Shown here piece after piece: positions 45,556 through 60,381 of a stretch of DNA of 64,000 nucleotides. A model generated the notes under the pieces. It ran no database searches and was not told the DNA's origin. It worked only from the letters and a program-made list of their open reading frames with translations. Position 1 is the stretch's first letter; every line of letters begins with the position of its first letter. A program made the position numbers and the translations under genes. Source of the stretch: Promethearchaeota archaeon (lineage in GTDB: Archaea; Asgardarchaeota; Lokiarchaeia; Sigyniarchaeales; SOKP01); NCBI GenBank assembly GCA_029838195.1, contig JALGVJ010000014.1:1-64000 (forward strand), given 5' to 3'.

Positions 45556-45571
45556 AAGAGGAAATCATGAG

Positions 45572-45681
45572 TGGGCCGGAGGAGGATCGAACTCCTGACC
45601 TTCGCGGTGTATTCGCGAAGAGAAAAATGAACATCTGTCATTCTCTTTAGCGCGACATCATACCCACTAGACTACCGGCCC
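45572..45681 (-). tRNA. tRNA-Val(TAC) with 37-nt BHB intron at position 33/34 (45612-45648)
   Basis: Acceptor GGGCCGG/CCGGCCC, anticodon stem TCGCG/CGCGA, spliced loop CT-TAC-AC, BHB CGCG-CUA / CGCG-AAU. Confidence 0.92.
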
Positions 45682-46690: not shown

Positions 46691-46797
46691 GCAGACGTAG
46701 CCTAGCTGGTAAGACGCCGGCCTTGAGTGCGCATAGGAGAGACCCATGGAAAGCCGGTGCGCGCAAGCGCTCGGGGGTTCGAATCCCTCCGTCTGCG
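46691..46797 (+). tRNA. tRNA-Ser (most likely TGA) with 24-nt intron at 37/38 (46728-46751)
   Basis: Acceptor GCAGACG/CGTCTGC, anticodon stem CCGGC/GCCGG, spliced loop CT-TGA-GA, long variable arm, GGTTCGAATCC. Confidence 0.82.
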
Positions 46798-46954: not shown

Positions 46955-47053
46955 GGGCTATTGGCGCAGGCAGGTAGCGCAGCAGGCTCTTAAGAGTTTT
47001 TAAATCTTGGGGTCACCTGACGGTCGGGGGTTCGAATCCCTCATAGCCCGCCA
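46955..47053 (+). tRNA. tRNA-Lys(CTT) with 22-nt intron at 37/38 (46993-47014), followed by genomic CCA
   Basis: Acceptor GGGCTAT/ATAGCCC, loop CT-CTT-AA, central helix CUCU/GGGG. Confidence 0.9.
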
Positions 47054-58718: not shown

Positions 58719-60381
58719 TTAAATCAATTTTTTTGAAACATAAGGACCATCTTTTTGATATCCTTGGTTATAAAACCATTGTTTAACGCCTAATCCACTA
58801 ATTACAGCTATTTTTTTTAAACCAAATTCTTCTTTTGAAATTTTTTCTGCTTGTTTTAATAATGTTTTTCCGAGACCTTTGTGTTGGATTTGACCTTGTT
58901 CGCGTGGCGGGGCACCCCAAGGAACTAACATGCCAACGATCTTGATTTCTCGCACGATAGAAGTGTTGCCATCATTTAATTCCTTTCTATGTGCTTTTTC
59001 AGACGGTATTCTCAATCTTAAATAGCCTAATAAGCACGTTCTTTTAATGTCTTCATGAGAGAGAAAAATTTCTTTACCTTCTGAGGCATCATACTCGTAG
59101 CTTAATAACTTAATTTCATTTAAAAGCGCAGCATTGTCTTGATATTTAGGGGTAAGATATCCTAATTCTCTACACCTAATACAACGGCATGAAGCATTTT
59201 TTTCTTTTAATTTCTCATGGATTAACTGTCTTAAGTTGCTTTTTTTACAGCCCGCTTGAATTAAATAGGCAGGGATATCTCGCATTATTCTCTGAATTCT
59301 AATATAAGGAGGGAGAGTTTTTTTCACAGACGCTAATAGATCTATTAATTTTTCTTCCGAATAAGGCACATATTTTCCTTTTTTCCACCAAGAATATAAC
59401 TCAGTTCCTTGAATCACTAAAGTAGGATAGATTTTTAACATATCAGGTCTATAATTAGGATCACTAAATAGTGTTTGGAACATCTCAAGATCTTTCTGAA
59501 GCGAAGAGCCAGGCAAATTGGGCATTACATGAAGATTTACTTTGAATCCAGCATCTTTAGCTATTCGAATTGCTTCAATAGAATCGGCAGTAGAATGGCC
59601 TCTTTTTATTAATTTATAAATATCATCATAAACGGTTTGCACGCCGATTTCTACTCTTGTCGTACCATAATGAAGCATTAAATCAACATGTTCTTCCTTG
59701 CAGTAATCCGGTCTTGTTTCAATTGTCAATCCAACTAATCTTTTACGTGAACGTTCCGCTTTTTTTTTTGCTTCCTCTAATGAAGTCGTATTTTCCCCGA
59801 TTATTCCTTCTAAAGCCCCTTTAACAAAATTTTCCTGATATGAGTGATCTGTCGATAAGAAGGTCCCTCCCATTACGATGAGCTCAATTTTTTATGGTGA
59901 TCCAGGGCATGTCCCGAATCAAGTCCACATCATGACCGATGGCGTCTAAATCAGAAATTCGAGAAAGAACTTGTTCCTTAGGGTCATAATTACAATAAAT
60001 CGACCTCATGGCTGCCGGTTCTCTTCCCGTATATGATTTAGCAACTTTTTCTCCAGGTTGGGAGTGGACACCCGGACAATAAACACATTCACCCGGACAT
60101 AGCAAGGGTTTTGTCATGATTGCGATGACCGTTACACCCGAAAGCGTTCTCGTTGAGCGTCTTTTCAGTAATTTTCGTAAAATTTTTTTTTCTTCTTCAG
60201 ACGCATGACTCAAGATGGTAGCATTTTTGATGACTTTTGGATAGTGATACTTTTTACCAATCTTACCCTTGAGATTAGTGATTTTGCTTTTAGAAAAATT
60301 GGGTTTCTTAATTAAAACTTCAATTATTTCCCGTGCTATTTTATTTTCCAAATTTAAACTATTATTATCTTTTACATCCAT
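58719..60381 (-). CDS. elp3: Elp3 tRNA uridine(34) acetyltransferase (radical SAM plus GNAT), two exons: 60381-59923 and 59891-58719; 543 aa if spliced
   Basis: RTLSGV, CPGECVYCP, KSYTG.EPA, GHDVD|KIELIVMGGTF, TIETRPDY, RVEIGVQT, KIYPTLVI.GT, RI.RDIP, CIRCRE, QHKGLG, VISG.GV. Confidence 0.93.
59892..59922 (-). other. 31-nt bulge-helix-bulge intron within the elp3 mRNA
   Basis: GUGG-AC|U-UGAUUCGGG-ACAUGC-CCUGGAUCA-CCAU-AA|A; excision restores the frame and the conserved motif. Confidence 0.85.

What the first reader, a model, noticed from the sequence alone, without database searches (positions are those of the whole stretch)
59880..59935. Candidate tRNA-type (bulge-helix-bulge) intron in the elp3 mRNA of an Asgard-like archaeon
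Seen in the sequence: elp3 is split into two ORFs by the 31-nt minus-strand insertion TTGATTCGGGACATGCCCTGGATCACCATAA (59922->59892), inside the conserved GHDVD-KIELIVMGGT motif. The RNA folds as a 4-bp central helix GUGG/CCAU, two 3-nt bulges on opposite strands (ACU and AAA), and a 9-bp inner stem UGAUUCGGG/CCUGGAUCA closed by a 6-nt loop. The exon-exon outer helix is weak, so the BHB is relaxed. Established: the archaeal splicing endonuclease cuts after the second nucleotide of each bulge. Here that gives AC|U and AA|A, joining GTG GAC to AAA ATT GAG (V-D-K-I-E) with no residue gained or lost, for a 543-aa Elp3. Unspliced mRNA frameshifts and stops at 59884. The well-known archaeal mRNA BHB intron is in crenarchaeal cbf5; I know of none in elp3 or in Asgard archaea. 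Automatic annotation would call this a pseudogene.
Basis: partly seen in the sequence, partly recalled or inferred. Interest (0 to 1): 0.95.

Follow-up and report, generated by a model that had tools for sequence, protein, structure and literature searches.

The report
tRNA-type mini-intron in Asgard elp3
The only gene for the tRNA-modifying enzyme Elp3 in this Asgard archaeon is interrupted by a 31-base insert shaped like an archaeal tRNA intron; comparison with relatives shows it is conserved and selected rather than a broken gene, which suggests these close relatives of eukaryotes splice some messenger RNAs with their tRNA-splicing enzymes, although no RNA data were available to show the splicing itself.

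Summary
The reading as a bulge-helix-bulge (BHB) intron is strongly supported by comparison with relatives, but not shown at the RNA level.

- **The insert:** elp3 (minus strand) is split by exactly 31 nt (59892-59922) between GTG GAC and AAA ATT GAG. Intron-less relatives read GH-VDKIEL-MGGTF without a break.
- **Other carriers:** The same 31-nt insert sits at the same codon boundary in 4 other MAGs from two other genera and in 7 metagenome contigs.
- **Conserved structure:** All 12 keep the 4-bp helix GUGG/CCAU, the 3-nt 5' bulge and the 3' AAA. The inner stem varies but stays paired (93.6% of cells paired, against 57% or less in shifted registers; 5 pairs changed on both sides).
- **Gene still functional:** Both exons are intact in every copy. 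dN/dS is 0.0-0.21, the same as in intron-less controls.
- **No read-through:** 9 of 12 inserts carry an in-frame stop.
- **Enzymes present:** The genome has a catalytic EndA subunit with the loop lysine linked to relaxed substrates, a His-less paralogue, and RtcB.
- **Control:** The same cut rule correctly splices this genome's own tRNA genes.
- **Missing:** No RNA run holds the gene.

The searched literature reports only crenarchaeal cbf5 as a BHB-spliced mRNA. First readers of this scan had already noted the elp3 insert in other genomes, and similar inserts in other genes of this genome.

The parts
59923..60381 (-). elp3 exon 1 (153 codons from ATG 60381; ELP3_N domain and the CxxxCxxC radical-SAM cluster motif; ends ...GHDVD)
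59892..59922 (-). 31-nt BHB-type (HBh') intron: last base of the 5' bulge, 9-bp inner stem with 6-nt loop, 3' strand of the central helix (CCAU), and the first two bases of the 3' bulge
58719..59891 (-). elp3 exon 2 (390 codons plus stop; starts KIELIVMGGTF; Radical_SAM remainder, Radical_SAM_C, GNAT part)
59925..59928 (-). 5' strand of the central 4-bp helix H (GUGG, exon 1); invariant in all 12 carriers
59922..59924 (-). 5' three-nt bulge AC|U; predicted cut after 59923
   Evidence: cut rule checked on this genome's tRNAs
59898..59921 (-). inner helix h' (UGAUUCGGG / CCUGGAUCA) with loop ACAUGC; covaries among carriers
59894..59897 (-). 3' strand of the central helix H (CCAU, intron); invariant in all 12 carriers although the rest of the intron varies
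59891..59893 (-). 3' three-nt segment AA|A; predicted cut after 59892; not closed by an adjacent outer helix in this genome
46955..47053 (+). same-window control: tRNA-Lys(CUU) with a 22-nt canonical BHB intron (46993-47014; H = CUCU/GGGG, bulges UA|A and UC|A)
45571..45681 (-). same-window control: tRNA-Val(UAC) with a 37-nt BHB intron (45612-45648; H = CGCG/CGCG, bulges CU|A and AA|U)

Best explanation
The 31 nt at 59892-59922 (minus strand) are an archaeal bulge-helix-bulge intron of the relaxed HBh' type inside the elp3 pre-mRNA.

**Proposed mechanism**
- The transcript folds into a 4-bp helix (GUGG in exon 1 with CCAU in the intron).
- On the 5' strand this helix is flanked by a 3-nt bulge (AC|U) and a 9-bp intron hairpin. 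On the 3' strand it is followed by AA|A.
- The heteromeric splicing endonuclease EndA cuts after the second base of each 3-nt element. It consists of a catalytic alpha subunit (contig C1) and a His-less beta-like subunit (contig C8).
- RtcB joins the 2',3'-cyclic-phosphate and 5'-OH exon ends. This gives GUG GAC|AAA AUU GAG and a 543-aa Elp3. The 31-nt intron is released, probably as a circle.
- Unspliced mRNA yields only a 165-aa fragment.

**What is shown**
- The insert and its fold.
- Conservation at one site, always 31 nt, with covariation.
- Intact, selected exons.
- Presence of the enzymes.
- Validity of the cut rule on this genome's own tRNAs.

**What is inferred**
- Cleavage and ligation in vivo.
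- Any regulatory use of the splicing step.
For: 1. **Exact site and length.** The insert interrupts GH-VD|KIEL-MGGTF with no residue gained or lost. In G000 the frame-restoring boundaries cannot slide, and they coincide with the cuts predicted from the helix geometry alone.
2. **Twelve independent carriers.** G000, four MAGs (isolates TEKIR_6S, AMARA_1S, DZ2S.179, DZ3M.111) and seven metagenome contigs all carry 31 nt at the same site.
3. **Structure conservation.** GUGG/CCAU is invariant. 93.6% of cells are paired, against 20-57% for shifted registers. Five pairs change on both sides, and 0 of 500 shuffles reach the covariation score. Each of the five carriers folded singly gives the same H-B-h' architecture.
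4. **The gene works.**
   - All exons are open wherever the contig allows.
   - dN/dS between carriers is 0.118 (exon 1) and 0.131 (exon 2) for G084/G094, at dS 0.39 and 0.87. It is 0.0 and 0.21 for G006/G049. Intron-less controls give 0.10-0.24.
   - elp3 is single-copy in G000. It is present in 140 of 161 genomes of the class and in 37 of 40 high-quality ones.
5. **Machinery.**
   - The EndA alpha subunit has the catalytic Y/H/K. Its loop lysine aligns with K44 of A. pernix EndA.
   - A His-less paralogue is present, as is RtcB.
   - PMC5829648 reports that Asgard archaea have (alpha-beta)2 EndA with the L1 loop, which allows cleavage of relaxed motifs.
6. **Same-genome substrates.** About two thirds of detectable tRNA genes carry introns. 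The identical cut rule turns them into normal 72-88-nt tRNAs. Several are relaxed like this one, and 6 of the 11 best candidates have a 3' element AA|N.
7. **Real in DNA.** Contigs from two studies contain the insert.
8. **Not alone.** A second gene in this genome, a ubiquitin E2, has a 31-nt insert of the same geometry between contiguous halves of one Pfam profile.
Against: - No RNA evidence exists. No spliced read, circular intron or peptide across the junction could be examined.
- In G000 the 3' cut site is not enclosed by an outer exon-exon helix. Cleavage there depends on a broad-specificity EndA, which is inferred from sequence only.
- The central helix strand GUGG and one base of each bulge are exon codons, so part of their invariance is explained by protein coding.
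- The carriers are related, so the shuffle statistics overstate independence.
- My own genome-wide geometric scan could not separate real from decoy candidates. It therefore gives no independent support for a larger class.
Confidence: 0.85

Rival explanations
1. Pseudogene. elp3 was inactivated by a 31-nt insertion and is decaying.
For: The gene is formally frameshifted and would be annotated as two ORFs. Close relatives such as G001, G050 and G066 lack the insert.
Against: - Twelve carriers keep both exons open with no other lesion.
- dN/dS is 0.0-0.21 on both exons, the same as intact controls, at dS up to 0.87.
- The insert is always 31 nt, with an invariant CCAU and covarying stem pairs.
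- elp3 is single-copy and near-universal in the class.
Confidence: 0.02
2. Translational recoding. Ribosomes either read through the insert with a +1 frameshift on the A-run, or bypass (hop over) the 31 nt as in T4 gene 60 or the mitochondrial byp elements.
For: The insert is short and contains a hairpin. In G000 it ends in a run of six A, on which a Lys-tRNA could slip +1 into the exon-2 frame. G000, G084 and L095 have no stop inside the insert.
Against: - 9 of 12 carriers have an in-frame stop 4-5 codons into the insert, so read-through plus frameshift cannot be the shared mechanism.
- Bypassing needs matching take-off and landing codons. Take-off would be GAC/GAU, but the codon before the resume site is UAA in all carriers.
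- The peptide the insert would encode is not conserved, whereas the RNA pairing is.
Confidence: 0.04
3. A genuinely split enzyme. The 165-aa N-terminal piece and a C-terminal piece started at an internal ATG (59873) are made separately and assemble without any RNA splicing.
For: Both ORFs are conserved and selected. Split genes for other proteins are known in some archaea (my own knowledge).
Against: - The break lies inside the conserved strand KIELIVMGGTF of the radical-SAM core. The C-terminal ORF would start at the Met of that motif and lose KIELIV.
- This model explains neither the fixed 31-nt length nor the invariant GUGG/CCAU helix.
- It also fails to explain the covarying hairpin.
- It does not account for structure-predicted cuts that restore the exact reading frame.
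Confidence: 0.05
4. Assembly or sequencing artefact, or a minority DNA variant.
For: The genome is a MAG with 7.9% estimated contamination.
Against: - The insert is in contigs of two sequencing studies, with no differences and no insert-less form.
- Homologous inserts are in four other MAGs and seven metagenome contigs; the MAG isolate and metagenome record names point to several different projects.
Confidence: 0.01

Closest known systems
BHB intron of the cbf5 pre-mRNA in Crenarchaeota (Desulfurococcales, Sulfolobales; Yokobori et al. 2009, PMC2738675, and the earlier work it cites)
   Same: - A short intron in a protein-coding gene for an RNA-modifying enzyme.
- Frequently a relaxed cleavage motif.
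- Occurs in a lineage with a hetero-oligomeric, broad-specificity splicing endonuclease.
- Patchy, lineage-specific presence and absence.
- Routinely mis-annotated as a broken or shortened gene.
   Different: - A different gene (elp3), phylum (Asgard) and insertion site, with no sequence relationship.
- cbf5 splicing was shown experimentally. Here it is inferred from comparative evidence only.
- In some carriers a long-range exon-exon helix closes the 3' bulge. I did not see that reported for cbf5 in the passages I read.
Archaeal tRNA introns (hBHBh' and relaxed HBh' motifs), including those of this genome
   Same: - Same geometry and same cut positions: a 4-bp helix, 3-nt bulges, and a cut after the second bulge base.
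- Similar size. This genome's tRNA introns found here are 17-42 nt, and the elp3 intron is 31 nt.
- The 3' element AA|N is common to both.
- The same enzymes are presumed to act.
   Different: - The host RNA is an mRNA with no tRNA body to help recognition.
- Removal changes the reading frame of a protein.
Unconventional cytoplasmic splicing of HAC1/XBP1 mRNA (IRE1 cleavage, RtcB or Trl1 ligation). Basis: own knowledge, plus the review PMC13149111.
   Same: - A small, spliceosome-independent, frame-changing intron in an mRNA (26 nt in XBP1).
- Cut by a protein endonuclease at stem-loop structures and sealed by the tRNA ligase.
- Splicing switches which protein is made.
   Different: - The endonuclease is IRE1, which recognises twin 7-nt loops, not EndA and a BHB.
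- It is stress-regulated in eukaryotes. No regulation is shown here.
Translational bypass elements (T4 gene 60 gap; byp elements of Magnusiomyces mitochondria). Basis: own knowledge.
   Same: A short (27-55 nt) hairpin-containing insert within an ORF that does not appear in the protein.
   Different: Those need identical take-off and landing codons. None exists here: the take-off codon would be GAC/GAU and the codon before the resume site is UAA.

Membership tests
Archaeal BHB (EndA-dependent) intron | Central helix of exactly 4 bp with a 3-nt bulge 3' of it on the 5' strand, closed on its other side by an intron helix (h') | tested here: met
   GUGG/CCAU, then ACU, then a 9-bp stem. This is the MFE and centroid structure. 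The same architecture appears in all five carriers folded singly. The helix is invariant in all 12.
Archaeal BHB (EndA-dependent) intron | Second 3-nt bulge on the opposite strand, closed by an outer exon-exon helix (h) (canonical hBHBh') | tested here: not met
   In G000, three A follow CCAU, but no adjacent outer helix forms. The long-range register pairs 7 of 11 positions, which is no better than in intron-less genes. In g11-type carriers a perfect 11-bp long-range helix starts right after AAA. G000 therefore fits the relaxed HBh' subclass, not the canonical form.
Archaeal BHB (EndA-dependent) intron | Cuts after the second base of each 3-nt element yield a functional mature RNA | tested here: met
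   The cuts give GUG GAC|AAA AUU GAG, i.e. VD|KIE, which matches intron-less orthologues with no residue gained or lost. The same rule gives normal tRNAs from this genome's interrupted tRNA genes.
Archaeal BHB (EndA-dependent) intron | Structure maintained by compensatory change among homologous introns | tested here: met
   12 sequences; 93.6% of cells paired; 5 pairs changed on both sides; 0 of 500 shuffles reach the score; shifted registers give 57% or less.
Archaeal BHB (EndA-dependent) intron | Host genome encodes the splicing endonuclease (a type that accepts relaxed motifs) and the RtcB ligase | tested here: met
   PF01974 hits on contigs C1, C8 and C53. The alpha subunit has Y/H/K and the loop lysine aligned with A. 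pernix K44. The beta-like paralogue lacks the His. RtcB scores 553 bits. Activity on relaxed motifs is inferred from PMC5829648.
Archaeal BHB (EndA-dependent) intron | Intron is actually excised and the exons ligated in RNA | not testable with these tools
   No RNA run holds the gene. Only DNA contigs could be laid on it.
Programmed ribosomal frameshift / read-through of the insert | Insert is translatable up to the shift site | tested here: not met
   9 of 12 carriers have an in-frame stop inside the insert.
Translational bypass (hopping) element | Matching take-off and landing codons flank the gap | tested here: not met
   The take-off codon is GAC/GAU and the codon before the resume site is UAA in all carriers.
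Known structured RNA families (group I/II introns, ribozymes, riboswitches) | Match to an Rfam covariance model | tested here: not met
   No Rfam match at E <= 1 in 59600-60200. 31 nt is far below the size of self-splicing introns.

The most novel reading that the evidence does not exclude
Members of this Asgard family (named Promethearchaeota in the public records) may routinely splice messenger RNAs with the tRNA-splicing endonuclease and RtcB.

- Under this reading, elp3 is one of a genome-wide class of about 30-nt frame-breaking mini-introns. I confirmed a second case, a ubiquitin E2 gene. Earlier notes of this scan claim several more in the same genome.
- The elp3 intron would move between lineages by homologous recombination together with about 45 nt or more of flanking exon. 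All 12 carriers share a TCT serine codon that none of 40 non-carriers has.
- In some lineages the intron has recruited a long-range exon-exon helix.
- Splicing could then act as a checkpoint or switch on the production of a tRNA-modifying enzyme.
Probability: 0.5. Interest if true: 0.95.

Novelty: new member of a known kind. Interest (0 to 1): 0.82.

Why it matters
- **Rarity.** Protein-mediated (EndA/RtcB) splicing of an mRNA is documented in archaea for a single gene, crenarchaeal cbf5. This is a second, well-supported case in a different gene.
- **Lineage.** It occurs in the archaeal lineage closest to eukaryotes, so mRNA interruption and repair by the tRNA-splicing machinery may be broader than thought. 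That bears on ideas about how intron tolerance arose before the spliceosome.
- **Annotation.** Automatic annotation of Asgard MAGs will call such genes pseudogenes or split genes, and so undercount core functions such as wobble-uridine modification.
- **Testability.** The 12-sequence alignment gives a defined minimal substrate for testing Asgard EndA specificity. It includes natural variants with and without a closing outer helix.

Tried and rejected
- **RNA evidence.** No RNA holder was listed for the gene, so expression and splicing could not be examined.
- **Genome-wide scan.** I searched for H(4 bp)-B(3)-h' elements whose removal fuses two long open frames. It returned about 5,160 candidates with the real geometry and with two shifted decoy geometries alike, because ordinary adjacent genes dominate. 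It recovered elp3 but gives no evidence for or against a class.
- **Covariance model R1.** Built from five carriers, it found only elp3 in this genome, so there are no sequence-related copies elsewhere.
- **Pattern scans of genome contigs.** They found only the four MAGs already known from the genome search.
- **First tRNA positive control.** It was too permissive and was replaced.
- **Local duplication or target-site repeats.** None were found around the insert.
- **Rfam.** No match.
- **Long-range outer helix (lead e1-5562695).** It holds for g11-type carriers but not convincingly for G000.
- **Co-conversion reading.** Third-position identity is 0.85 in the 20 codons upstream of the junction between g6 and g11 carriers, against about 0.5 gene-wide. 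This is suggestive only. It rests on 20 codons and is partly explained by the pairing constraint.
Full report
**Observation**

On the minus strand, elp3 reads ...GGT CAT GAT GTG GAC, then 31 nt (59922 down to 59892), then AAA ATT GAG CTC ATC GTA ATG GGA GGG ACC TTC.
- The ORF list shows a 165-aa ORF (59884..60381) and, in another frame, an open stretch from 59891 to 58722.
- Pfam assigns ELP3_N to the first part. It assigns Radical_SAM (profile positions 67-158 only) plus Radical_SAM_C to the second. The radical-SAM domain is therefore cut in two.
- In 24 of the first 25 relatives with the motif, the protein reads AIGH-VDKIEL[IV][IV]MGGTF without a break.
- Removing the 31 nt gives VD|KIE with no residue gained or lost, and a 543-aa product.
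- The 43-nt core folds into GUGG/CCAU, a 3-nt bulge, a 9-bp stem and a 6-nt loop (-15.7 kcal/mol, z = -3.45).
- No Rfam family matches, and the insert is not a local duplication.

**The insert is real DNA**

A 339-nt contig of run X1 bridges the insert with no differences. A 289-nt contig of run X2, from a different study, contains the whole insert identically, although it reaches only 10 nt into exon 2. No joined, insert-less form appeared.

**Who carries it**

The organism is an Asgard archaeon. The closest named genomes are Promethearchaeota and Hodarchaeota MAGs at 65-69% identity.
- I searched exon 2 in 135 genomes of the family and 161 of the class. An open frame of only 389-391 aa, meaning a stop just upstream of KIEL, occurs in G000 (genus g1), G006 and G049 (g6), and G084 and G094 (g11). 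It does not occur in any other hit whose contig reaches far enough upstream.
- All five have exactly 31 nt at the identical codon boundary.
- A pattern that asks only for a 14-44-nt gap between the conserved exon codons found the same four other MAGs in the genome collection. It also found seven metagenome contigs, each again with a 31-nt gap.

**Structure is conserved, sequence is not**

- In the 12-sequence alignment, GUGG, CCAU and the AAA after it never vary. The inner stem varies: UGAUUCGGG/CCUGGAUCA here, UGGUACA/UGUGCCA, UGGCAUGC/GUGUGCCA and UGGUACAC/GUGUAUCA elsewhere.
Five pairs show changes on both sides, and none of 500 shuffles reaches the covariation score.
- The five carriers that I folded singly (G000 and the four other MAGs) each give the same helix-bulge-helix architecture.
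- Caveats: the carriers are related, and GUGG is also a Val-Asp codon context. CCAU, however, is pure intron and is still invariant.

**The gene is alive**

- After in-silico removal of the 31 nt, every carrier with a complete contig gives one frame of about 540-564 codons. All 12 have intact exons wherever the contig allows.
- dN/dS between carriers:

| Pair | Exon 1 | Exon 2 | Note |
|---|---|---|---|
| G084/G094 (carriers) | 0.118 | 0.131 | dS 0.39 and 0.87 |
| G006/G049 (carriers) | 0.0 | 0.21 | |
| Intron-less control pairs | 0.10-0.24 | 0.10-0.24 | |

- G000 has a single elp3. Elp3 is found in 140 of 161 genomes of the class, and in 37 of 40 high-quality ones.
- A decaying pseudogene is therefore excluded for practical purposes.

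**Recoding rivals**

- The exon-2 frame is +1 relative to exon 1. The A-run in G000 could in principle support a +1 slip.
- However, 9 of 12 inserts have an in-frame stop 4-5 codons in.
- There are no matching take-off and landing codons for bypassing: the take-off codon is GAC/GAU and the codon before the resume site is UAA.
- The insert-encoded peptide is not conserved, while the RNA pairing is.

**Machinery and same-genome substrates**

- The genome has three PF01974 hits:
  - a 202-aa protein with the catalytic Tyr/His/Lys context, whose best hits are catalytic subunits of crenarchaeal heterotetrameric EndAs (3p1z_B, 3ajv_B, 2zyz_B);
  - a 199-aa paralogue without the His;
  - a 106-aa fragment copy of that paralogue.
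- The catalytic subunit aligns without gaps through the Crenarchaea-specific loop, and it keeps the lysine equivalent to A. pernix K44.
- PMC5829648 reports that Asgard archaea have (alpha-beta)2 EndA with this L1 loop, and that the loop goes with cleavage of relaxed HBh' motifs.
- RtcB lies on the same contig.
- ARAGORN flags introns in about two thirds of the 36 tRNA genes it detects.
- As a positive control I applied the identical rule (4-bp helix, cut after the second base of each 3-nt element) to these genes. It yields normal 72-88-nt tRNAs. Examples are tRNA-Lys(CUU) and tRNA-Val(UAC) in this very window, and a gene that ARAGORN called 'tRNA-Stop', which becomes tRNA-Gln(UUG).
- Several of these tRNA introns have an outer helix of only 0-2 bp. 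Six of the 11 best candidates have a 3' element AA|N, like elp3.

**Outer helix**

A first-stage note on another genome (e1-5562695) claimed a long-range exon-exon helix. I tested it.
- In g11-type carriers, the 11 nt after the 3' AAA are a perfect complement of the exon-1 codons for (Q)VQS. The helix appears in the MFE structure (z = -3.8), starting immediately after the three A. That makes a closed BHB with a 33-nt loop-out.
- In the g6 type it pairs 8 of 11 positions, and in G000 7 of 11. Intron-less genes average 6.6. It is not predicted in the g6-type or G000 folds.
- The G000 intron is therefore the relaxed HBh' form.

**Distribution and origin**

- On an Elp3 tree (quick IQ-TREE, SH-aLRT support), carriers fall into three supported clades. 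Each has an intron-less close relative: G001, G050 and G066.
- All 12 carriers use TCT for the serine 45 nt upstream of the intron. None of 40 non-carriers does (34 use AGY).
- Third-position identity just upstream of the junction is 0.85 between g6 and g11 carriers, against about 0.5 gene-wide.
- My inference, at moderate confidence, is that the intron travels with a flanking exon tract by homologous recombination, or that the tract is held by the pairing constraint. The G000 intron is only about 48% identical to the others, with compensatory stem changes, so it is not a recent arrival.

**Context**

- Earlier notes of this scan (unchecked AI leads) report about 30-nt BHB-like inserts in other genes of this genome, and the same elp3 insert in other genomes.
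- I verified one myself. A ubiquitin-E2 gene on contig C72 has a 31-nt insert with H = CUCC/GGGG, bulges AU|U and AA|A, and a 7-bp stem. Its two halves match UQ_con profile positions 21-62 and 68-139.
- My own unbiased scan could not separate signal from adjacent-gene noise.

**Literature**

Full-text searches found no report of a BHB intron in elp3, or in any Asgard protein gene. The cbf5 intron of Crenarchaeota is the documented precedent (PMC2738675). A 2026 preprint describes heavily interrupted Asgard tRNA genes and two EndA paralogues in 44 of 60 genomes, but it does not mention mRNA.

**Verdict**

This is a genuine, conserved, selected 31-nt element. It is best explained as an EndA/RtcB-spliced intron in elp3 mRNA (confidence 0.85). 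It is a new member of the kind known from cbf5, and possibly part of a larger Asgard class. RNA-level proof is the missing piece.

Noticed in passing
window 45571-45681 (-), 46691-46797 (+), 46955-47053 (+): Three tRNA genes clustered in the window all carry introns. tRNA-Val(UAC) has a 37-nt intron and tRNA-Lys(CUU) a 22-nt intron, and both splice cleanly under the BHB rule. The tRNA-Ser(UGA) gene did not resolve with one strict BHB and may have more than one intron or a relaxed one.
   Followed up: partly
G000 contig C72, L100:644-674 (-): A ubiquitin-conjugating E2 gene is split by a 31-nt insert with the same geometry (H = CUCC/GGGG, bulges AU|U and AA|A, 7-bp stem). The two halves match UQ_con profile positions 21-62 and 68-139, and removing the insert restores the PP-x9-HPN spacing.
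   Followed up: partly
exon 1, about 45 nt upstream of the intron (window ~59962-59972; alignment A3 columns 11-21): All 12 intron carriers use TCT for a conserved serine, where none of 40 intron-less relatives does (34 use AGT/AGC). This fits either co-transfer of the intron with flanking exon or selection for the long-range helix. It is not resolved.
   Followed up: partly
L033:1492-1812 (-) (G000 contig C53): A 106-aa ORF is a truncated, near-identical copy of the middle of the His-less EndA paralogue on contig C8. It may be a gene fragment, a recent partial duplication or contamination from a close strain.
   Followed up: no
G000 contig C40:18101-18204 (+): ARAGORN calls this gene 'tRNA-Stop (tta)'. 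After removing a 29-nt canonical BHB intron (H = CUUU/GAAG, outer helix 7 bp, inner helix 8 bp) it becomes a normal 75-nt tRNA-Gln(UUG). So it is an annotation artefact, not a suppressor tRNA.
   Followed up: partly
L067 (G100:C139:9600-11600): The intron-less elp3 of genome G100 has one in-frame TGA inside exon 2. I did not examine whether it is a sequencing error, a pseudogene or recoding.
   Followed up: no
L034 (G000:C23:93378-94685, about 29 kb beyond the window end): The RtcB ligase gene lies on the same contig as the intron-bearing elp3. There is no evidence that this proximity means anything.
   Followed up: no
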